A stretch of DNA of 64,000 bases from an uncultured Candidatus Actinomarina sp. (GCA_902634185.1 CACPJC010000003.1:32369-96368); one strand, 5' to 3'; positions 1,526 through 35,050 are shown, counted from the stretch's first letter. Notes: generated from the letters alone by a model not told the origin. A program made the numbers and translations.

Positions 1526-3145
1526 ATGTCAAAAAATGTATTAGTTTGTGTGGCTTGGCCATATGCAAGCGGGTCAAGACATCTAGGCCATATTGGTGGA
1601 GCATATCTGCCTGCTGATATTTTTGCAAGGTACCACAGAGCTGTTGGTAACAATGTTTTAATGGTGTCAGGAAGCGACGTTCACGGTACCCCAATAACTG
1701 TAAGAGCTGATGCAGAAGGTGTTCAACCAATAGATATAGTCAATAAATATCACAATGAATTTTTGGGGTATTGGGAAAAACTTCGTATTTCTTGGGATAA
1801 CTATACAACAACAATGACTGATAATCATAAAGAAGTTACTCAGGAAATGTTCTTAAAAATAAAAGAGAATGGCTTTATTGAAAAAAATAAAAGTATCCAG
1901 GCTTTTGATCCACAAGAAAAAAAGTTTTTACCTGATAGATATGTAGAGGGTACTTGTCCTTGTCCTGTTGCTTATAGTGAAGCAAGAGGTGACCAATGTG
2001 ATAGCTGTGGTAAAACTCTTGATCCAGAAGAGTTAATAAATCCTATAAGTAAAATATCTGGAAACAAAGCAGAATTTAAAGAGACTGAACATTATTTTTT
2101 AAAGTTAAGTGCTCTAAATGACAGACTTTCTGATTGGTTAAATAGCAAAGAAGGTTGGAGACCTCACGTTATAAACTTTTCTAAATCATTTGTTGAAGAA
2201 GGTCTACAAGATAGAGCTATAACGAGAGATTTAGACTGGGGAATCGACATTCCAGAAAATGAATTAGGTGATGGAAAAAAAATATACGTATGGTTTGAAG
2301 CTGTAATTGGTTATTTATCTGCAGCTAAAGAATGGGCAATAACCAATGGCACACCTGATGCATGGAAAGATTTTTGGATGAATGAGGATGCAGAGTCTTA
2401 TTATTTTGTTGGAAAAGATAATGTTCCTTTTCATGCAATAATATGGCCTGCCATGTTACTTGCATATGGTGATTTGAACCTACCAACAAATGTTCCGGCA
2501 AACCAGTACATATTGATTAAAGGTGAAAAGGCATCTGCAAGTAGGGGTGTTGGAAAAACTTTGAACGATTATCTTGATGAATGGAATCCAGATTCATTAA
2601 GATACGCACTAGCCAGTATCCTGCCAGAGCAAAATGATTCTGAAATCTCTGAAGATGAAATGATTAGACGAAATAACGAAGAACTTGTGGCGGCATGGGG
2701 AAATTTAGTTCAAAGAGTTTTTTCACAATATATAAATAATTTTGAAAAATTAGACTTTGATTTTGAGTTAAATGAAATTGATAAAAAAATAATTGATGAA
2801 GCTAGTGTTTGTTTTGAAAAGACAAGTGAATTAATCGAAAAGGTCGAACTCAAATCATCACTTCAGTCAGTTATGGGATATGTAAATAAAATAAATGCTT
2901 ATCTTAATGAAACAGAACCATGGAAGATAATAAAAGAGGACAACGCCAGAGCAACAGCAATACTACACACATCACTTACAGCAATAGATGCATGTGCATC
3001 ATTATTTACTCCTTTTATGCCGACAACATCTGAGGTTGTAAAAAATGCAATTGAAAAAAATACAAATAATAATTGGTCAGTAAACGACATAAAAAAAGGT
3101 GCCCCTTTAGAAAATATTGGACACCTTTTTAAAAAATTTGATTAG
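1526..3145 (+). CDS. metG: Methionyl-tRNA synthetase
   Basis: PYASGSRHLGH (HIGH-type) motif, CPCP...CDSC zinc knuckle, and a KMSKS-region variant KASASRG, followed by DSLRYALAS as in MetRS. Confidence 0.85.
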   Translation: MSKNVLVCVAWPYASGSRHLGHIGGAYLPADIFARYHRAVGNNVLMVSGSDVHGTPITVRADAEGVQPIDIVNKYHNEFLGYWEKLRISWDNYTTTMTDNHKEVTQEMFLKIKENGFIEKNKSIQAFDPQEKKFLPDRYVEGTCPCPVAYSEARGDQCDSCGKTLDPEELINPISKISGNKAEFKETEHYFLKLSALNDRLSDWLNSKEGWRPHVINFSKSFVEEGLQDRAITRDLDWGIDIPENELGDGKKIYVWFEAVIGYLSAAKEWAITNGTPDAWKDFWMNEDAESYYFVGKDNVPFHAIIWPAMLLAYGDLNLPTNVPANQYILIKGEKASASRGVGKTLNDYLDEWNPDSLRYALASILPEQNDSEISEDEMIRRNNEELVAAWGNLVQRVFSQYINNFEKLDFDFELNEIDKKIIDEASVCFEKTSELIEKVELKSSLQSVMGYVNKINAYLNETEPWKIIKEDNARATAILHTSLTAIDACASLFTPFMPTTSEVVKNAIEKNTNNNWSVNDIKKGAPLENIGHLFKKFD

Positions 3146-3528
3146 CTCTTTGTAGCTTGAAATACCTCATCTATTTCATTAATCAAACCTAGAAGTTCCT
3201 CGCCTACAGCAGGATCTTCTGTTTTCTTTGCTTCTCCAGCTTTCTTTGTTGCATTCCAAAAAAGATCATGAACATTTGGAAATTTTTCAAGGTGTTCTGG
3301 CTTGAAATAATCTGTCCACAATACCCATAGATCTTTCTTAACCTCTTCAGCCATATCTTCTTTAATGGTGATGCATCGTTGTTTGAATGCAGCATCATCA
3401 GATTCTTGATATTTTTTGGAGGCATTTACAACTGACTCTGCATTGATTCTTGCTTGTGCAGGATCATAGACACCGCATGGCAAATCACAATGAGCATGAG
3501 CTACTCTTGTTGGTTTAAATAACTTCAT
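3142..3528 (-). CDS. sodN: Nickel superoxide dismutase precursor
   Basis: Ni-hook HCDLPCGVYDP directly after a short MKLFKPTRVAHA propeptide. 128 aa. Confidence 0.9.
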   Translation of the reverse strand: MKLFKPTRVAHAHCDLPCGVYDPAQARINAESVVNASKKYQESDDAAFKQRCITIKEDMAEEVKKDLWVLWTDYFKPEHLEKFPNVHDLFWNATKKAGEAKKTEDPAVGEELLGLINEIDEVFQATKS

Positions 3529-3576
3529 AAATCTCCTTTAATAATCTACTATTAATTTTAATAACAAAAAAACTAT

Positions 3577-4080
3577 ATGATTAAAAGCATTACACGGATA
3601 TTAAATATTAGAAACCTTCTTATCATCGCTGTCTATTTATTTCTAAAAAATAATAAAGATGGAACATATAGAACATATGAAATCAAAGAAGAAAGTATGG
3701 AGCCATCATTACATGAAGGCGATTACGTATTAGCTATAAAAGTTGCAGAACCATTAAATCGAGGTGATATTGTTATTTATGAATATGCTCCAAAAAATAT
3801 TGAAATAATTAAACGAGTCATCGGACTTCCAGGTGAGACTATTTCAAATGAAGATGGGGAGATAAAAGTTGATGGAAAATCAATTAGCGATAGTTGGGGT
3901 AATGGTAAGTCAGCTTCTTTTGAAACTATTACATTGCAGGAAGATGAATTATTTGTATTAGGAGATAATAGAGAAAAATCTTCTAGTGATTCGTCATCTA
4001 TTGGTCCAATTAAAAATGAGGATTGTTGGAAATTAAGATATCTCTATTGGCCCTATCATAAGTTTAAGAGTTATGAATAA
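3577..4080 (+). CDS. sodX: S26-family signal-peptidase-like protease, probable Ni-SOD maturation peptidase
   Basis: N-terminal TM helix, SMEPSL (S26 catalytic Ser box), IKRVIGLPGE and GDNREKSSDS boxes. It is divergent from sodN across a 48-bp spacer. Confidence 0.7.
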   Translation: MIKSITRILNIRNLLIIAVYLFLKNNKDGTYRTYEIKEESMEPSLHEGDYVLAIKVAEPLNRGDIVIYEYAPKNIEIIKRVIGLPGETISNEDGEIKVDGKSISDSWGNGKSASFETITLQEDELFVLGDNREKSSSDSSSIGPIKNEDCWKLRYLYWPYHKFKSYE

Positions 4081-4261
4081 TTTAGTTTGTACCTGGTGTA
4101 AAAGAGAAATGACCTATCTTCATGGTCATGGAGCTTGTATCAACAATCAATGTCCTATGTTTGGTTTGAACCAAGCTGAATGTTGTGATGGTGAAACTGT
4201 TTCAAACTGTGTTTCACCACAGAAAAATGAAATAACATTATCCCCGCGTGCATTAAACTAG
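4073..4261 (+). CDS. Small Cys-rich (8 Cys) hypothetical protein, possible zinc-binding
   Basis: 62-aa ORF that overlaps the sodX stop (ATGAATAA). It has paired Cys motifs CTWC...C...C...CC...C. No recognisable family. Confidence 0.3.
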   Translation: MNNLVCTWCKREMTYLHGHGACINNQCPMFGLNQAECCDGETVSNCVSPQKNEITLSPRALN

Positions 4262-4278: not shown

Positions 4279-6969
4279 ATGAGTGAAGAAAAACCTTTAA
4301 ACGTACCTGAATATCTATTGATTAGGTCTGCTGAGGCAAGAGCTAAACATTTAGGTATTTCTGTTGAACAAGCTTTAGCTGAAATCAAGGGAGAAGCTCA
4401 ACCAGTAGTTGAGGAACCTGTAGCTGAAGTTGAAGAACCTGTAGTTGAAGTTGAAGAGCCAGTTGAAGAGGAACCTGTAGCTGAAGTTGAAGAACCTATA
4501 GTTGAAGTTGAAGAGCCAGTTGAAGAACCTGTAGTTGAAGTTGAAGAGCCAGTTGAAGAACCTGTAGTTGAACAAGAACCTTTAGAGGAAGTAAGCATAG
4601 AAAATAAAACTGTTGAGTCTATACCAGCCGTTACCATTCGTTTTGCTGGTGATTCAGGTGATGGTATGCAATTAGTTGGTACTAGATTCACAGACACTTC
4701 TGCTTTATTTGGAAACGACCTTGCTACTTTGCCAGCGTTTCCTGCTGAAATTAGGGCTCCTCAAGGAACAGTTGCAGGTGTATCTTCCTTCCAAGTTCAA
4801 ATTGCTGACTTTGATATTTTGACACCAGGAGATGCCCCTGATGTTTTAGTTGCTATGAACCCTGCTGCTTTGAAAGCTCACCTACAAGATTTAACACCAA
4901 ACGGAATGTTGATATTAAACGAAGATGCTTTTGATGAAAAAAATATTAAAAAAGCAGGTTATGGGATAGATCCTAGAGAATCTGAGGAACTTGATGGATA
5001 TAGAATTTTTCAAGTCCCAATGGAAAAACTAACAAAGGAAGCTTTGGAGGAATTTGATTTACCTGGAAGAGCAGTTTTACGTTCTAAAAATATGATAGCT
5101 CTTGGTTTAATTTCATGGACTTTTAACAGAGATCTAAAAGATACTGAAAATTGGATAAACGAGAAATTCAAAAATCTACCAGAAGTCGCAAAAGCAAACA
5201 TAAAAGCACTCAAGACTGGATACAACTTTGGTATTACAGTTGAGGCATTTCACCATACTTATAAAGTAGATAAGGCCTCATTACCAGCTGGAGAGTATAC
5301 AAATATAAATGGAAATATCGGTTTAAGTTGGGGTCTTATTGCGGGTGCTAAAAAAGCTAATCTCGATCTGTTTTACGGAAGTTATCCTATTACTCCTGCA
5401 TCAGATATATTGCATGAGTTATCAAAACACAAAAATTTCAATGTGTTGACTTTCCAAGCTGAAGATGAAATTGCAGCTGCTGCAGCAGCAGTAGGTGCTT
5501 CCTTTACAGGAAAGCTTGCAGTTACAGGAACCAGTGGACCAGGTCTTGCTCTAAAAAGTGAAACCATATCTTTAGCCCTTTCTGCAGAATTGCCTTTAGT
5601 AGTAGTTAATGTTCAAAGGGGTGGGCCATCAACGGGACTACCTACAAAACCAGAACAGTCTGATCTAATGTTTGCAATGTATGGACGCCATGGAGAGGCT
5701 CCTTTACCAGTAGTTGCAGCTAAATCCCCATCTCATGCTTTCTATGCAGCGTTTGAGGCAACACGTATTGCTCTTAAATATATGACACCCGTTATTTTAT
5801 TGTCAGACAACTATGTTGCTACAGGTTCTGAGCCATGGAAACTACCTGAGATTGAAAACCTTGATGAATTGGGAACAAATTTAACCACGACTTACAACAC
5901 TGAAGATGGGTTTTTACCATTTTTTAGAGATTACGAAACTAATGCTCGACCATGGGCTATTCCTGGAGTACCAGGATTAGAGCATCGTGTAGGTGGATTA
6001 GAAAAAGAAGATGGAACTGGAAATGTTTCTTATGACACTGATAATCACCAATACATGACAGATATGAGAGCATGGAAAATTGAAAATATAGCAAATGATA
6101 TTGACCCACTTGAAATAAATGGAGACATATCATCAGATACTCTCATTTTGGGTTGGGGATCAACTTTTGGTGGTATCACACAAGCTGTAAACAGACTCAA
6201 TTCAAAAGGTGTAAAGGTAGCAAGTGCACACTTCACACACATCAATCCTTTCCCAGACAACACGGCTGAAGTTTTGAGTCAATTTAAAAACATCATTGTC
6301 CCTGAATTAAACACTGGCCAATTGTCAAAACTTTTACGTGCACGTTATCTTGTCGATACTGTCGGAATCAATAAAGTTGAAGGTTTACCTTTTACAGCTC
6401 AAGAATTAGAAGAAAAAATCGAATCTCTCATAAACTCTTTTGGTACAAAACTCGAGCCTATCGTAGAAGAAGTTGTAGCTGAGGAAGAACCTGTAGTTGA
6501 AGAGGTTGTAGAAGAAGTTGTAGCTGAGGAAGAACCTGTAGTTGAAGAGGTTGTAGCTGAGGAAGAACCTGTAGTTGAAGAGGTTGGAATACCAGAACAC
6601 CTCATAATGAGATCTGCTGAAGCACGTGCAAAAGCATTAGGTATACCTGTTGAGCAAGTTTTAGAAGAAATGAGTGCAGATAAACCAGCAGCAGAAACCC
6701 AAGAACCAGTTGTTGAACAAGAACCAGTTCTTGAAGAAGAGCCAGTTGTTGAAGAAGTAAAATCAGATACATCTGAAGAACCAGCAGCAGAAGCTCAAGA
6801 ACCTGTAGTAGAGAGAGTTGTCGAAAGGGTCACTGAAAGAGTGACTGAGAGAATTATTGAAAAAGTTGATGAGAATATGCCTGAGAATAAAGAACTTGTT
6901 CAAGACATTGATGAAGAAAGAAACAAGGTAGAGGAAGAGAAAAAAGAGGAAGTAAAGACTGATGAGTAA
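4279..6969 (+). CDS. korA: 2-oxoglutarate/2-oxoacid:ferredoxin oxidoreductase alpha subunit with atypical N- and C-terminal extensions
   Basis: The core (about aa 115-720) matches KorA/PorA-type 2-oxoacid oxidoreductase alpha subunits. At 896 aa it is about 250 aa longer than usual. The extra length is acidic EEPVVEV repeats plus a duplicated RSAEARAK(H/A)LGI(S/P)VEQ motif at both ends. Confidence 0.85.
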   Translation: MSEEKPLNVPEYLLIRSAEARAKHLGISVEQALAEIKGEAQPVVEEPVAEVEEPVVEVEEPVEEEPVAEVEEPIVEVEEPVEEPVVEVEEPVEEPVVEQEPLEEVSIENKTVESIPAVTIRFAGDSGDGMQLVGTRFTDTSALFGNDLATLPAFPAEIRAPQGTVAGVSSFQVQIADFDILTPGDAPDVLVAMNPAALKAHLQDLTPNGMLILNEDAFDEKNIKKAGYGIDPRESEELDGYRIFQVPMEKLTKEALEEFDLPGRAVLRSKNMIALGLISWTFNRDLKDTENWINEKFKNLPEVAKANIKALKTGYNFGITVEAFHHTYKVDKASLPAGEYTNINGNIGLSWGLIAGAKKANLDLFYGSYPITPASDILHELSKHKNFNVLTFQAEDEIAAAAAAVGASFTGKLAVTGTSGPGLALKSETISLALSAELPLVVVNVQRGGPSTGLPTKPEQSDLMFAMYGRHGEAPLPVVAAKSPSHAFYAAFEATRIALKYMTPVILLSDNYVATGSEPWKLPEIENLDELGTNLTTTYNTEDGFLPFFRDYETNARPWAIPGVPGLEHRVGGLEKEDGTGNVSYDTDNHQYMTDMRAWKIENIANDIDPLEINGDISSDTLILGWGSTFGGITQAVNRLNSKGVKVASAHFTHINPFPDNTAEVLSQFKNIIVPELNTGQLSKLLRARYLVDTVGINKVEGLPFTAQELEEKIESLINSFGTKLEPIVEEVVAEEEPVVEEVVEEVVAEEEPVVEEVVAEEEPVVEEVGIPEHLIMRSAEARAKALGIPVEQVLEEMSADKPAAETQEPVVEQEPVLEEEPVVEEVKSDTSEEPAAEAQEPVVERVVERVTERVTERIIEKVDENMPENKELVQDIDEERNKVEEEKKEEVKTDE
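4380..4600 (+). repeat. Imperfect tandem nucleotide repeats (about 45-50 nt units) encoding (EEPVVEV)n in the korA 5' extension
   Basis: Repeated gaagaacctgtagttgaagttgaagagccagttgaag units are visible in the sequence. Confidence 0.8.
6470..6600 (+). repeat. Three tandem roughly 42-nt repeats (gaagttgtagctgaggaagaacctgtagttgaagaggttgta) in the korA 3' extension
   Basis: Near-identical units encode VVAEEEPVVEEV three times. Confidence 0.8.
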
Positions 6970-7978
6970 AATTCCTCTCTCATATAAAAGAGCTGACTTT
7001 GCTAGTGACCAAGAGGTTAAATGGTGCCCTGGATGTGGTGATTATACAATTCTTGCTTCAGTGCAAAACTTTATGACTGAATTAGGTATCAGAAAAGAAA
7101 ATATTGTGTTTGTATCTGGCATTGGTTGTGCAGCAAGATTTCCTTACTACATGAACACATACGGTTTACATTCTATCCATGGTCGTGCTCCTGCAGTAGC
7201 TACTGGAGTAAGTGCATCTAACCCAGATCTTTCAGTTTGGGTAGTATCTGGAGATGGTGACGCACTATCTATTGGAGGAAACCACTTAATTCATGCACTA
7301 AGAAGAAATGTAAATATGAAGATTTTAATGTTCAATAATCAAATATATGGACTTACCAAAGGACAGTATTCCCCTACCAGTGAAGAAGGAAAGAAAACAA
7401 AATCTTCTCCCTTTGGTTCTGTAGAGCTTCCACTAAACCCAATGAGTTTAGCCTTAGGAGCTGAGGCATCATTTGTTGCAAGGTCAATTGATATGGATAG
7501 AGATCTTACAGCAGAGGTACTTCGAGCAGCATCTGAACATGAGGGCTCAGCTTATGTTGAGATTTATCAAAACTGTAACGTTTTTAATGACAAAGCCTTT
7601 GAGCAGTTAACTTCAAAGGAAGGAAAAATAGCAAATCGTATAAATCTAAAACATGGTGAGAAAGTTATCTTTGGAGCAGAAGATGAAAATGCTGTAACAA
7701 TTCGTGATGGAGAAGCGGTCATAGTCAAAAGATCTGAAATAGATGATAGTGAGATTTATGTTCATGACATTACAAAAGATAACCCTTCAATTGCTTTTTC
7801 ATTATCAAGATTATCTCATGGGCCTTATGGGCCAACGCCAGTAGGTATCTTTAGACAAGTTGAAAGAGATACTTACAATGATGAAGTCAGAGAACAAATT
7901 GACTCATCTATTGAGCAAAAAGGTGAAGGAGAACTTGATAAGCTTATTCGTTCTTTAGGAACTTGGGAAGTTAACTAA
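6962..7978 (+). CDS. korB: 2-oxoglutarate/2-oxoacid:ferredoxin oxidoreductase beta subunit (TPP-binding)
   Basis: CPGCGDY... TPP-binding beta subunit. 8-bp overlap with korA. Confidence 0.85.
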   Translation: MSKIPLSYKRADFASDQEVKWCPGCGDYTILASVQNFMTELGIRKENIVFVSGIGCAARFPYYMNTYGLHSIHGRAPAVATGVSASNPDLSVWVVSGDGDALSIGGNHLIHALRRNVNMKILMFNNQIYGLTKGQYSPTSEEGKKTKSSPFGSVELPLNPMSLALGAEASFVARSIDMDRDLTAEVLRAASEHEGSAYVEIYQNCNVFNDKAFEQLTSKEGKIANRINLKHGEKVIFGAEDENAVTIRDGEAVIVKRSEIDDSEIYVHDITKDNPSIAFSLSRLSHGPYGPTPVGIFRQVERDTYNDEVREQIDSSIEQKGEGELDKLIRSLGTWEVN

Positions 7979-33585: not shown

Positions 33586-34935
33586 TTATTTATTGGTTTT
33601 TGCGACATCCTTTAAGAATGCGTCATTGCTTTTGAGAGTTTTAAGCCTATCAATTAATAATTCTGTTGCTGCACCACCTTCAAGGCCAACAAGAACTCTT
33701 CTTAGAGTCCATAATGACTCCAGTTCTTTTGGAGAAACTAGTCGTTGTTCTTCACGAGTTCCAGATGGAGTAACATCTATCGCCGGGAATACTCTTTTAT
33801 CTGCAAGCTGTCTATCTAATCTAAGCTCCATGTTTCCAGTTCCTTTAAACTCTTCAAAGATAACTTCATCCATTTTTGAGCCCGTCTCAACAAGTGCAGT
33901 ACCAAGAATTGTTAAACTTCCTCCACCTTCTATGTTTCTAGCTGCACCAAAGAATTGTTTTGGAGGTGTTAAAGCAGTTGAATCAACACCACCTGATAAA
34001 ATTCTTCCACTAGCTGGAGTAGCTAAGTTGTGAGCTCTCGCAAGTCTTGTAATTGAATCCAATAAAATTACTACGTCCTTACCTTCTTCAACAAGTCTTT
34101 TTGCTCTTTCGATAGCTAATTTAGAAACTTGAGTGTGCTCATCTGGTGGTCTATCAAAGGTTGAAAATACAACTTCTCCGTCAACCGAACGTTGCATATC
34201 GGTAACCTCTTCTGGTCTTTCATCAACTAAGACAACCATTAAATAAACTTCTGGATTGTTAGCAGTAATAGAGTTTGCAATTTCTTTAAGAATTGTAGTT
34301 TTACCTGCTTTCGGTGGGGAAACAATCAATCCTCTCTGACCTTTTCCAATAGGTGCAATAAGGTCTACGATTCTTCCAACAAGTCGCTCTGGTTCACCAT
34401 CAATCTCAAGTTTTAGTCTCTCATCAGGAAAAAGAGGTGTCAGTTTATCAAAGTCTACTCTACGAGCCAAAAGTTCTGGATCAGCTCCATTTACAGTCTT
34501 AGGTTCAACTAATGCAGGATACTTTTCTTTTGCACGTGGTGCACGAATTGGTCCTGTTACGAGATCTCCTTTTCTCATTCTAAATTTTTTGATTGCTCCC
34601 GCTGGTACATATACATCCATCTCACTTGGTTTATAACCACTACATCTTAAAAATCCATAACCCTCTGGCAAGATATCAAGAATACCCTCTCTTGTTTCAC
34701 CCTCTTTAATTTGGCTATCACCAGAATTTACAACAGATGGCATATCTTTGTCTGAAGCTACAACTGCTACTTCTTCTTCTGCACCATCTGCAATATCACC
34801 AATTGCGTCACCTTGTTCTAATAAAAGATCTATTAACTTTGCCTTTTGAAGGCCTTTGTGTTCAAGACCTAAACCATCAGCTATTTCACGAAGATCTGCT
34901 ACTGGTTTTGATTGTAATTGTGACCTTGCGGACAT
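33586..34935 (-). CDS. rho: Transcription termination factor Rho
   Basis: Rho_N domain at the N-terminus, CSD-like RNA-binding domain, Walker A PPKAGKTT. 449 aa. Confidence 0.95.
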   Translation of the reverse strand: MSARSQLQSKPVADLREIADGLGLEHKGLQKAKLIDLLLEQGDAIGDIADGAEEEVAVVASDKDMPSVVNSGDSQIKEGETREGILDILPEGYGFLRCSGYKPSEMDVYVPAGAIKKFRMRKGDLVTGPIRAPRAKEKYPALVEPKTVNGADPELLARRVDFDKLTPLFPDERLKLEIDGEPERLVGRIVDLIAPIGKGQRGLIVSPPKAGKTTILKEIANSITANNPEVYLMVVLVDERPEEVTDMQRSVDGEVVFSTFDRPPDEHTQVSKLAIERAKRLVEEGKDVVILLDSITRLARAHNLATPASGRILSGGVDSTALTPPKQFFGAARNIEGGGSLTILGTALVETGSKMDEVIFEEFKGTGNMELRLDRQLADKRVFPAIDVTPSGTREEQRLVSPKELESLWTLRRVLVGLEGGAATELLIDRLKTLKSNDAFLKDVAKTNK

Positions 34936-35050
34936 ATTTCTCCTAATTTCAAAACATTCATGGTTTGGAATGGTTTGTGAATTGTGTTTGTCTGAAAGAC
35001 ATTCTTATTATATACACAGCAATTTTAAATTAACAACATTTAAATTTTTT

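What the first reader, a model, noticed from the sequence alone, without database searches (positions are those of the whole stretch)
4279..6969. KorA carries duplicated Rho_N/SAP-like helix-hairpin motifs and acidic (EEPVVEV)n repeats at both termini
The N-terminus reads PEYLLIRSAEARAKHLGISVEQALAEIKG and the C-terminal extension reads PEHLIMRSAEARAKALGIPVEQVLEEMSA. These are clearly paralogous about 27-aa modules, each flanked by long E/P/V acidic repeats, plus a final KVEEEKKEEVKTDE tail. The module resembles the Rho N-terminal (helix-hairpin) motif found on the adjacent-region Rho (VADLREIADGLGLEHKGLQKAKLIDLL).

Such appendages on a central-metabolism oxidoreductase are unusual. They could mediate RNA or nucleoid binding, or assembly into a supercomplex, or act as an acidic, ferredoxin-mimicking docking arm.
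Basis: partly seen in the sequence, partly recalled or inferred. Interest (0 to 1): 0.55.

Follow-up and report, generated by a model that had tools for sequence, protein, structure and literature searches.

The report
KorA carries borrowed respiratory-chain docking modules
In one subgroup of the abundant marine bacterium Actinomarina, a TCA-cycle enzyme subunit (KorA) carries two copies of a small, undescribed helical module on floppy acidic tethers; the same module sits on the cytoplasmic ends of respiratory-chain membrane proteins, which suggests the enzyme is tethered to the respiratory machinery.

Summary
ORF 4279-6969 is one 896-aa KorA with a normal 613-aa catalytic core (TIGR03710, above cut-off). 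It adds a 105-aa N-terminal and a 178-aa C-terminal extension.

- **Modules:** each extension holds a ~33-aa module (BLASTP E 1e-13 between them), predicted as a helix-turn-helix hairpin. Both are under strong purifying selection.
- **Linkers:** they are flanked by E/P/V-rich linkers encoded by near-perfect DNA tandem repeats, and copy number varies between strains.
- **Not Rho_N/SAP-like:** there is no Pfam hit, and hhalign probability against this genome's own Rho N-terminus is 0.14%.
- **True family:** the module belongs to an undescribed family, absent from Pfam, NCBIfam and the PDB, with 185 clusters among 1.84 billion representatives. In Acidimicrobiia it normally sits, in 1-7 copies separated by disordered linkers, at the cytoplasmic N-terminus of respiratory membrane subunits. 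These are the subunit-IV-like partner of cytochrome b and TM-anchored cytochromes c.
- **Distribution:** only one monophyletic Actinomarina subclade has it on KorA. Sister lineages have a 616-aa KorA in the same synteny.
- **Co-occurring gene:** a clade-restricted 62-aa Cys-rich ORF lies just upstream of every extended korA.

Best reading (inferred): a docking cassette co-opted from respiratory subunits tethers KorAB to the respiratory assembly or to a shared partner.

The parts
4279..6969 (+). korA: 896-aa 2-oxoacid:acceptor (2-oxoglutarate:ferredoxin) oxidoreductase alpha subunit with N- and C-terminal extensions
   Evidence: Single ORF. Pfam POR 127-315, POR_N 356-578 and PFOR_II 620-684. 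NCBIfam TIGR03710 scores 647.8 bits against a cut-off of 482.75, residues 118-714. PDB 6N2N matches at E 3e-70, residues 119-715.
4297..4395 (+). N-terminal module (residues 7-39, LNVPEYLLIRSAEARAKHLGISVEQALAEIKGE): helix-turn-helix hairpin
   Evidence: AF2 with the family alignment predicts helix 11-25, a turn and helix 29-37, with block-mean pLDDT 94-97 over residues 11-30 and 86 over 31-40. Purifying selection. It is 70-82% identical to the SU4 modules of Actinomarina.
4396..4593 (+). N-terminal acidic linker (residues 40-105; (EEPVxEV)n, net charge -28), predicted disordered
   Evidence: DNA tandem repeats at 4407-4572; the long-period arrays (33 and 57 nt) match at 93-98%. pLDDT 26-30 in the full-length model. 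Length varies among relatives that are 94-96% identical. The ancestral start position is V105, encoded by GTA.
4594..6432 (+). Catalytic core (residues 106-718), collinear with the 616-aa KorA of sister Actinomarina lineages
   Evidence: 86-88% identity to 616-aa proteins that start MSIENKTVESIP. dN/dS about 0.025.
6433..6582 (+). C-terminal acidic linker 1 (residues 719-768; (EEVVAEEEPVV)n, net charge -19)
   Evidence: Tandem repeats at 6463-6586 with periods 33 and 45 nt at 97-100% match. Copy number varies between relatives.
6583..6681 (+). C-terminal module (residues 769-801, VGIPEHLIMRSAEARAKALGIPVEQVLEEMSAD)
   Evidence: BLASTP E 1e-13 against the N-terminal module. Helices 773-787 and 791-800 in the full-length model. 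pS 0.71 and pN 0.09 against L003.
6682..6798 (+). C-terminal acidic linker 2 (residues 802-840; (QEPVVE)n, net charge -11)
   Evidence: Tandem repeat at 6700-6757, period 18 nt, 90% match. Composition.
6799..6966 (+). C-terminal tail (residues 841-896): (ERVx)n four-residue repeat followed by a charged E/K-rich end; helical at low confidence; function unknown
   Evidence: Among all fetched loci the (ERVx)n motif occurs only in extended KorA proteins. It is also present in P0016, which lacks the C-module. Helices 844-864 and 869-889 have pLDDT 33-50.
6962..7978 (+). korB: beta subunit (TPP_enzyme_C). Its start overlaps the korA stop by 8 nt.
   Evidence: Pfam. NCBIfam TIGR02177 scores 255 bits, just under its 261.9 cut-off. 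Sequence at the junction.
4073..4261 (+). 62-aa Cys-rich ORF (7 conserved Cys; CxxC-x11-Cx4C...CC...C) between sodX and korA. It is present only where KorA is extended and is a candidate functional partner.
   Evidence: Present in all 12 extended-korA loci, including the divergent P0016 locus L089. Absent from 616-aa korA loci with the same synteny. Only 15 clusters in 5.8 billion proteins. pN/pS 0.12-0.25. No Pfam family.

Best explanation
Shown:
- The KorA of this Actinomarina subclade has acquired two copies of a ~33-aa helix-turn-helix 'sticker' module, each on disordered acidic 'spacer' repeats. One lies in front of the catalytic core and one behind it.
- The module is not Rho_N/SAP. It belongs to an undescribed family confined to Acidimicrobiia.
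- Its usual home is the N-terminus of respiratory membrane subunits, where it occurs in 1-7 copies. These hosts are the subunit-IV-like partner of cytochrome b in a conserved [membrane protein]-[2x4Fe-4S protein]-[cyt b]-[module-SU4]-[Rieske]-[cyt c] operon, and two TM-anchored cytochrome c subunits of the neighbouring haem-copper oxidase-like cluster.
- The KorA modules are translated and under purifying selection. The linkers evolve by repeat expansion and contraction.

Inferred from topology:
- In every host the module faces the cytoplasm.

Inferred mechanism:
- The module is a protein-protein docking element. It binds either other copies of itself or a common cytoplasmic partner of the respiratory complexes.
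- By copying the cassette from the SU4 gene onto both ends of KorA, this lineage tethers KorAB to the cytoplasmic face of its bc-type complex and oxidase. KorAB is its only route from 2-oxoglutarate to succinyl-CoA.
- The long flexible arms keep the 2-oxoglutarate-oxidising, ferredoxin-reducing enzyme next to the machinery that ultimately takes its electrons.
- The co-acquired 62-aa Cys-rich protein may be part of the same adaptation.
For: **Family and context**
- A full HMMER search with the module profile finds only 185 clusters in 1.84 billion representatives.
- The complete hits carry 1-7 modules followed by TM helices. The downstream domain is either Cytochrom_B_C (P0306, P0243, P0347) or cytochrome c (P0292, P0312).
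- 70+ genomic loci from Actinomarina and other Acidimicrobiia (GC 0.33-0.69) all show the order Fer4-CytB-[module-SU4]-Rieske-CytC.
- In Actinomarina, the FixO-like 266-aa and the 317-aa cytochrome c proteins upstream each start with a module variant followed by (EEPAPV)n and a TM helix.
- Genomes with extended KorA also carry the SU4-type module: L006/L050, L007/L051, L011/L047 and L012/L043.

**Conservation**
- The SU4 module is about 79% identical between low-GC Actinomarina and high-GC Acidimicrobiia. That compares with 64-66% for the SU4 membrane core and 74-81% for cytochrome b. Such conservation implies a specific conserved interaction.
- Both KorA modules are under strong purifying selection.

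**Origin**
- The KorA N-module is closer to SU4 modules (70-82%) than to KorA's own C-module (58%).
- Extended KorAs form one clade in an NJ tree of the core alignment (no bootstrap), sister to the 616-aa forms, with identical synteny.

**Topology** (established knowledge of b6f subunit IV, and the need for cytochrome c domains to be extracytoplasmic)
- The module precedes the first TM helix, which is followed by the PEWY-like APWY loop.
- In the cytochromes c it precedes a single N-in anchor.
- All modules are therefore in the same compartment as KorAB.

**Metabolic setting**
- Actinomarina lacks the 2-oxoglutarate dehydrogenase E1 component (bioRxiv 10.64898/2026.04.03.716425).
Against: - No binding partner is identified, and nothing here tests binding.
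- The full-length model is poor (mean pLDDT 47) and gives no information on docking.
- In another lineage, a module-bearing SU4 gene sits beside cytochrome b without an adjacent Fer4 or Rieske gene (L085). A Fer4-specific partner is therefore not universal.
- The sister clade does well with a 616-aa KorA, so the tether is not essential for KorAB function.
- The (ERVx)n tail and the Cys-rich ORF are not explained by this model.
- Clustering at 50% identity may hide other soluble enzymes that carry the module. That would weaken the specific link to respiration.
Confidence: 0.5

Rival explanations
1. Electron-acceptor capture. The modules do not localise KorAB. Instead they bind a small soluble redox protein and hold it close to the KorAB [4Fe-4S] exit site on fly-casting arms. 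Candidates are the NuoI-like 2x[4Fe-4S] protein encoded at the head of the bc-type operon and the clade-specific 62-aa Cys-rich protein. On SU4 the same module would anchor that soluble Fe-S subunit to the membrane complex.
For: - The ~150-aa Fer4 protein has no TM helix and sits immediately upstream of cyt b in all 70+ Acidimicrobiia loci. It would need a docking site.
- KorAB of the OAFO type has no ferredoxin subunit of its own.
- The Cys-rich ORF co-occurs perfectly with the extension.
Against: - The module is also on two cytochrome c subunits of the oxidase cluster, where holding a ferredoxin makes little sense.
- L085 has a module-SU4 gene with no neighbouring Fer4.
- The Cys-rich ORF is absent from all other module-bearing lineages, so it cannot be the ancestral partner.
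Confidence: 0.2
2. Generic physicochemical appendage. The acidic repeats act as entropic bristles, solubility enhancers or cation buffers, or keep the enzyme away from nucleic acids and anionic membranes. The helical modules are passengers of a duplicated DNA segment with no specific binding role in KorA.
For: - The linkers are hypervariable tandem repeats.
- Net charge is -99.
- A sister clade functions without them.
Against: - The modules, unlike the linkers, are under strong purifying selection in KorA. One comparison has 0 nonsynonymous against 8 synonymous changes, and pN/pS is about 0.12 at saturation.
- Both copies have been retained across the clade. P0015 also has both, and P0016 keeps the N-copy.
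- Linker composition is not conserved across the family: it is Pro/Ala-rich in high-GC hosts.
Confidence: 0.1
3. Nucleic-acid or nucleoid binding through a Rho_N/SAP/HeH-like helix-extended-loop-helix motif.
For: Only a superficial likeness: about 30 aa, two helices and a Gly in the turn.
Against: - No Rho_N, SAP or HeH hit at E<=10.
- hhalign probability of 0.14% against this genome's Rho N-terminus, which itself hits Rho_N and SAP.
- The turn is 3 residues long, not the extended SAP loop.
- The modules have net charge -1 and -3 and are embedded in segments that are about 40% acidic.
- All other hosts are membrane respiratory subunits.
Confidence: 0.03
4. Artefact: mis-assembly or mis-called start, with the extensions not being part of the mature protein.
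For: The repeats do break or frameshift assemblies elsewhere. L003 has a frameshift, and contigs L008 and L010-L012 end inside the repeats.
Against: - The same architecture is found in many independent assemblies and single-cell genomes.
- The ancestral ATG is lost (GTA).
- The substitution pattern is that of coding sequence in both modules.
- korB is translationally coupled to the end of the extended frame.
Confidence: 0.02

Closest known systems
KorA / OGOR alpha subunit (2-oxoacid:acceptor oxidoreductase, TIGR03710), e.g. Magnetococcus marinus OGOR (PDB 6N2N) and Mycobacterium tuberculosis KorAB (PMC2773412)
   Same: The core (residues 106-718) has the full domain set and an adjacent, translationally coupled KorB. 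It probably plays the same TCA-cycle role as in M. tuberculosis, since Actinomarina lacks OGDH E1.
   Different: It adds 283 residues that are absent from 6N2N, from the family models and from the 616-aa sister proteins: two docking-type modules, three acidic repeat linkers and an (ERVx)n tail.
N-terminal module repeats of the Acidimicrobiia subunit-IV-like cytochrome b partner (Cytochrom_B_C / PetD-like) and of TM-anchored cytochromes c. This family is unnamed and absent from Pfam, NCBIfam and the PDB.
   Same: Same sequence family. The profile matches with E down to 1e-65, and the KorA N-module is 70-82% identical to Actinomarina SU4 modules. The layout is also the same: a module followed by a low-complexity linker.
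   Different: The usual hosts are integral membrane respiratory subunits with the module at the N-terminus. Here the host is a soluble TPP enzyme with one module at each end.
Peripheral-subunit-binding domain (PSBD, Pfam E3_binding) with Pro/Ala/Glu-rich linkers in the E2 chains of 2-oxoacid dehydrogenase complexes (own knowledge)
   Same: Works-like analogy: a helical mini-domain of about 35 aa flanked by long flexible linkers that docks partner enzymes, also in 2-oxoacid oxidation.
Rho_N / SAP / HeH helix-extended-loop-helix motifs
   Same: About 30-35 aa with two helices.
   Different: Tested and not met; see the membership test.
Sticker-and-spacer multivalent linker proteins such as EPYC1 or CsoS2 (own knowledge)
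   Same: Short repeated helical binding motifs are separated by disordered spacers. Copy number is variable, with up to 7 modules in P0241.
   Different: There is no sequence relationship, the modules are attached to enzymes or membrane subunits rather than to a dedicated scaffold, and clustering behaviour is untested.

Membership tests
2-oxoacid:acceptor oxidoreductase alpha subunit (KorA; NCBIfam TIGR03710 OAFO_sf) | Family HMM score above the curated cut-off | tested here: met
   647.8 bits against a cut-off of 482.75, residues 118-714.
2-oxoacid:acceptor oxidoreductase alpha subunit (KorA; NCBIfam TIGR03710 OAFO_sf) | Domain set POR (gamma-like) + POR_N (TPP domain I) + PFOR_II, with an adjacent beta subunit carrying TPP_enzyme_C | tested here: met
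   Pfam hits for POR and POR_N are strong. PFOR_II scores 25.9 bits, just under its cut-off of 27. KorB at 6962-7978 overlaps the korA stop.
2-oxoacid:acceptor oxidoreductase alpha subunit (KorA; NCBIfam TIGR03710 OAFO_sf) | 2-oxoglutarate specificity and ferredoxin as acceptor | not testable with these tools
   Inferred only, from family annotation and the absence of OGDH E1 in Actinomarina.
Rho_N (PF07498) / SAP (PF02037) / HeH | Match to the family HMM | tested here: not met
   No such hit at E<=10 for either module or either whole extension. As a positive control, this genome's Rho N-terminus hits Rho_N at E 1.8e-4 and SAP at 1.3e-3.
Rho_N (PF07498) / SAP (PF02037) / HeH | Profile similarity to a bona fide Rho N-terminal motif | tested here: not met
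   hhalign of A3 against the Rho N-terminus (window 33586-35004, minus strand): probability 0.14%, 1 aligned column.
Rho_N (PF07498) / SAP (PF02037) / HeH | Nucleic-acid binding | not testable with these tools
   The charge and context argue against it.
Peripheral-subunit-binding domain (E3_binding, PF02817) | Match to the family HMM, or a structural match to PSBD | tested here: not met
Acidimicrobiia respiratory-subunit N-terminal module (undescribed; defined here by profile A3) | Significant match to the module profile (consensus IPEhLLxRSAEAxAKALGhxVEQhLAEM) | tested here: met
   Both KorA modules are seed members of A3. The profile retrieves SU4 and cytochrome c proteins at E 1e-10 to 1e-65. 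tblastn with the KorA N-module hits SU4 modules at 64-82% identity in 70+ loci.
Acidimicrobiia respiratory-subunit N-terminal module (undescribed; defined here by profile A3) | Helix-turn-helix hairpin flanked by a low-complexity disordered linker | tested here: met
   AF2 predicts helices 11-25 and 29-37 with block-mean pLDDT 94-97 over residues 11-30. Linkers have pLDDT below 30 and consist of repeats.
Acidimicrobiia respiratory-subunit N-terminal module (undescribed; defined here by profile A3) | Host is a membrane respiratory subunit, with the module N-terminal to the first TM helix | tested here: not met
   KorA is a soluble enzyme and carries one copy at the C-terminal side. This is the novelty: same module, new kind of host.

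The most novel reading that the evidence does not exclude
The module is the 'sticker' of a previously unrecognised cytoplasmic assembly system of Acidimicrobiia. In that system the bc-type complex, the haem-copper oxidase cytochromes c and, in this Actinomarina clade, the TCA enzyme KorAB are held together by multivalent hairpin modules on disordered tethers. The result would be a membrane-attached 2-oxoglutarate-to-oxygen metabolon. Electrons might pass from KorAB through the operon-encoded 2x[4Fe-4S] protein into the bc-type complex. The clade-specific 62-aa Cys-rich protein would be an added component.
Probability: 0.25. Interest if true: 0.8.

Novelty: new variant of a known kind. Interest (0 to 1): 0.55.

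Why it matters
Actinomarina is among the smallest and most abundant photoheterotrophs in the surface ocean. Its genomes are extremely streamlined, so keeping about 850 extra nucleotides on an essential TCA-cycle gene argues for function.

The finding does three things:
- **A new domain family.** It exposes a conserved ~33-aa domain family, not described in Pfam, NCBIfam, the PDB or the literature searches made here. The family decorates three different respiratory subunits across a whole bacterial class.
- **A testable physical link.** Recruitment of the module onto a soluble enzyme gives a natural experiment. It points to a physical link between central carbon oxidation and the respiratory chain, and the idea can be tested directly with recombinant modules.
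- **Two annotation corrections.** Actinomarina does encode a bc-type complex, although an earlier survey reported complex III as missing (PMC7771536). Extended korA genes are often broken or frameshifted in assemblies because of their repeats.

Tried and rejected
- **Pfam and NCBIfam on the modules and extensions:** nothing relevant at E<=10.
- **PDB sequence search with the module profile:** only designed helical-repeat proteins sharing 'LGISVEQ/ELL'. I regard this as a convergent idealised helix-loop-helix, not homology.
- **Full-length AF2 with a 20-sequence alignment:** mean pLDDT 47 because the alignment is shallow and nearly identical. It was useful only for secondary structure and disorder of the extensions.
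- **First word-index search with a 33-aa alignment:** The 44-aa version returned only proteins under 78 aa, mostly fragments. Their contexts were still the key lead.
- **Alternative start at the ancestral Met:** rejected, because the codon is GTA.
- **Recent gene conversion between the SU4 and KorA modules:** rejected, because nucleotide identity is only 0.72-0.75.
- **Other soluble hosts among the HMMER hits:** P0346, P0289 and P0356 look like chimeric or frameshifted assemblies. P0371 is a weak hit in an unknown protein. I did not count them.
- **Fer4 as universal partner:** weakened by L085.
- **Promoter and terminator scan around korA:** no more hits than in shuffled sequence.
- **Literature searches:** nothing on this module or on an extended KorA.
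- **One error of my own:** the L005 core coordinates were out of register, so those rows are meaningless and should be ignored.
Full report
**1. What is there**

The window is low-GC DNA (about 35%). Neighbouring genes and exact protein matches place it in Candidatus Actinomarina (class Acidimicrobiia).

ORF 4279-6969 (+) is one open frame of 896 codons.
- Residues 106-718 are a complete KorA/OAFO alpha subunit.
  - Pfam finds POR, POR_N and PFOR_II.
  - NCBIfam TIGR03710 scores 647.8 bits against a cut-off of 482.75.
  - PDB 6N2N matches at E 3e-70 over residues 119-715.
- KorB follows at 6962-7978 and overlaps the korA stop by 8 nt.
- The gene order is amt, metG, sodN, sodX, a 62-aa ORF, korA, korB.

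**2.

- The two ~33-aa modules (residues 7-39 and 769-801) align at BLASTP E 1e-13.
- The intervening segments are about 40% Asp+Glu with abundant Pro and Val. The protein has net charge -99.
- At the DNA level the linkers are tandem repeats with periods of 12-57 nt, most at 90-100% match.
- Relatives 94-96% identical in the core range from 838 to 902 aa. One 90%-identity cluster spans 699-940 aa. So the linkers expand and contract rapidly.

**3. The extensions are part of the protein**

- The 616-aa relatives start MSIENKTVESIP. In the window that Met is V105, encoded by GTA, which is not a start codon.
- No other extended form keeps a Met there.
- Substitutions in the modules are overwhelmingly synonymous:
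  - N-module, window vs L007: 8 synonymous and 0 nonsynonymous differences.
  - N-module vs L003/L009: pS 0.72-0.76, pN 0.087.
  - C-module vs L003: pS 0.71, pN 0.09.
  - Core: dN/dS about 0.025.
- The minus-strand ORF 4398-4697 lies over the repeats and is a mirror artefact.

**4. The extension is lineage-specific**

- Proteins with about 87% core identity are 616 aa and have no extension.
- On an NJ tree of the core (no bootstrap), all extended forms make one clade, sister to the 616-aa group. This includes the more divergent P0015 (both modules) and P0016 (N-module plus the (ERVx)n tail, no C-module).
- The 616-aa genes lie in the same amt-metG-sodN-sodX-korA-korB synteny (L087/L088). The extension therefore arose in place.
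- About 8 of roughly 40 low-GC species representatives recovered in the genome scan carry the KorA-type module.

**5. What the module is not**

- Pfam at E<=10 gives no Rho_N, SAP, HeH or E3_binding hit. NCBIfam gives nothing.
- The window's own Rho (33586-35004, minus strand) hits Rho_N (E 1.8e-4) and SAP with its N-terminus.
- hhalign of the module profile against that segment gives probability 0.14%.
- AF2 on the family alignment gives helix 11-25, a three-residue turn and helix 29-37, with block-mean pLDDT 94-97 over residues 11-30.
- A PDB sequence search finds only designed helical repeats.

**6. What the module is**

- A profile search limited to short proteins gave many N-terminal fragments. 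Their contigs placed the module between a cytochrome b gene and a Cytochrom_B_C gene.
- Translating L001 in three frames shows a single gene broken by assembly frameshifts. It reads module, acidic/Pro-rich linker, then subunit-IV-like membrane domain.
- An exhaustive HMMER search of 1.84 billion representatives found only 185 clusters at E<=1e-3.
- Complete hits have 1-7 modules, separated by Pro/Ala/Glu-rich linkers and followed by TM helices. The downstream domain is one of:
  - a PetD-like domain with a PEWY-like APWY loop (P0250, P0252, P0306, P0313, P0319, P0243, P0347);
  - a cytochrome c domain (P0292, P0312);
  - an unassigned membrane domain (P0241, P0247).
- A scan of GTDB species genomes returned Actinomarina and other Acidimicrobiia, apart from a few bins labelled with other phyla.
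- tblastn classification of 80+ loci shows an invariant operon across GC 0.33-0.69. The order is membrane protein (~197 aa), NuoI-like 2x[4Fe-4S] protein (~150 aa), cyt b, module-SU4, Rieske, cyt c.
- In Actinomarina the divergent upstream cluster encodes three proteins:
  - a COX1-like protein;
  - a FixO-like 266-aa cytochrome c;
  - a 317-aa cytochrome c.
- Both cytochromes begin with a module variant, followed by (EEPAPV)n and one TM helix. This cluster is also present in the extended-KorA clade.
- Several single genomes contain both the KorA-type and the SU4-type loci.

**7. Inferences from anatomy**

- By the established topology of b6f subunit IV, the region before its first helix faces the n-side. 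The region before an N-in anchor of a cytochrome c must be cytoplasmic.
- So every module is in the cytoplasm, as is KorAB.
- The SU4 module is about 79% identical between Actinomarina and high-GC Acidimicrobiia. It is more conserved than the SU4 membrane core (64-66%) and comparable to cytochrome b (74-81%).
- Linker composition simply tracks genome GC: Pro/Ala-rich in high-GC hosts and Glu/Pro/Val-rich in low-GC hosts.
- That is the signature of a specific binding 'sticker' on a non-specific flexible 'spacer'.
- The KorA N-module resembles SU4 modules (70-82%) more than the KorA C-module (58%). Nucleotide identity of 0.72-0.75 shows no recent gene conversion.
- The simplest history is that the module-linker cassette was copied from the SU4 gene onto korA in the ancestor of this clade.

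**8. Best explanation and its limits**

I conclude that KorA has co-opted the docking cassette of the respiratory subunits. Its most likely effect is to tether KorAB to the cytoplasmic face of the bc-type complex and oxidase, or to whatever common partner those modules bind.
- KorAB is probably the only route from 2-oxoglutarate to succinyl-CoA, because OGDH E1 is absent from Actinomarina.
- The family relationship, translation, selection, distribution and topology are shown or follow from established knowledge.
- Binding itself and the identity of the partner are inferred.
- A close rival is capture of a soluble redox partner, either the operon's Fer4 protein or the Cys-rich protein.
- Bristle-only, nucleic-acid-binding and artefact readings are disfavoured for the reasons given under each rival.

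**9. A co-occurring novelty**

- The 62-aa ORF at 4073-4261 has seven conserved Cys. It is present in all 12 extended-korA loci examined, including the divergent P0016 locus.
- It is absent from the 616-aa loci, where sodX and korA are only 76 nt apart.
- It has only 15 clusters in 5.8 billion proteins, all close relatives.
- It is under purifying selection, with pN/pS 0.12-0.25, and has no Pfam family.
- One variant was seen on 463 contigs, so the clade is common in ocean metagenomes.
- Its last codons overlap a DNA motif, ACATTRTCCCCGC, that is conserved upstream of korA in both extended and 616-aa genomes. This is probably a cis-regulatory element.

**10. Novelty and score**

- KorA itself is known.
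- The module family is undescribed in the libraries and literature searched.
- Its transfer to a soluble TCA enzyme is a new architectural variant.
- I rate it 'new variant of a known kind' with interest 0.55. The anatomy and evolutionary story are solid and suggest a testable enzyme-to-respiratory-chain tether. The mechanism is unproven.

Noticed in passing
window 4073-4261 (+): A 62-aa Cys-rich ORF (MNNLVCTWCKREMTYLHGHGACINNQCPMFGLNQAECCDGETVSNC...) overlaps the sodX stop by 8 nt and ends 17 nt before korA. It occurs only in the extended-KorA clade, is under purifying selection and has no known family.
   Followed up: yes
window 4235-4247 (+); also L087/L088 about 4957-4969 and L089 about 748-760: The DNA motif ACATTRTCCCCGC lies about 30-45 nt upstream of the korA ATG. 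It is conserved in extended and 616-aa genomes alike, although it is coding (NEITLSPR) in one and intergenic in the other. It may be a cis-regulatory element.
   Followed up: partly
L040 855-9055 (and L013-L053): All Actinomarina loci examined encode a split cyt b / SU4 / Rieske / cyt c complex with a NuoI-like Fer4 protein, next to a COX1-like/FixO-like cluster. An earlier genome survey reported complex III as missing in Actinomarinales (PMC7771536). The divergent, module-decorated subunits probably escaped KEGG-based detection.
   Followed up: partly
L003 4001-7054; L008, L010, L011, L012 contig ends; L001 4001-5163: The acidic and Pro-rich repeat linkers frequently cause frameshifts or contig breaks in assemblies. 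As a result, extended korA and module-SU4 genes are often called as fragments. Spurious ORFs are also called on the opposite strand, e.g. window 4398-4697 (-) and L003 4133-4732 (-).
   Followed up: partly
window 6799-6966 (+): The (ERVV/ERVT)n four-residue repeat and the E/K-rich end of KorA are conserved in the clade, including P0016, which lacks the C-module. Among all fetched loci they occur only in extended KorA proteins. Their function is unknown; they may form an amphipathic or coiled helix.
   Followed up: partly
L040 1801-2601 (-) and 855-1808 (-): The oxidase-cluster cytochromes c carry a three-helix variant of the module, with an extra leading helix (MSELLSKVAEILNAPESLVQRSAEARAEASGKSVDEVLQSWAGGE). 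Their first ~75 residues are nearly identical to each other, which suggests a tandem duplication or gene conversion.
   Followed up: no
window 3142-4080: A Ni-superoxide dismutase gene (sodN, minus strand) lies beside its maturation peptidase gene (sodX-like, Peptidase_S26), immediately upstream of the korA region. This could be relevant if KorAB is oxygen-sensitive.
   Followed up: no
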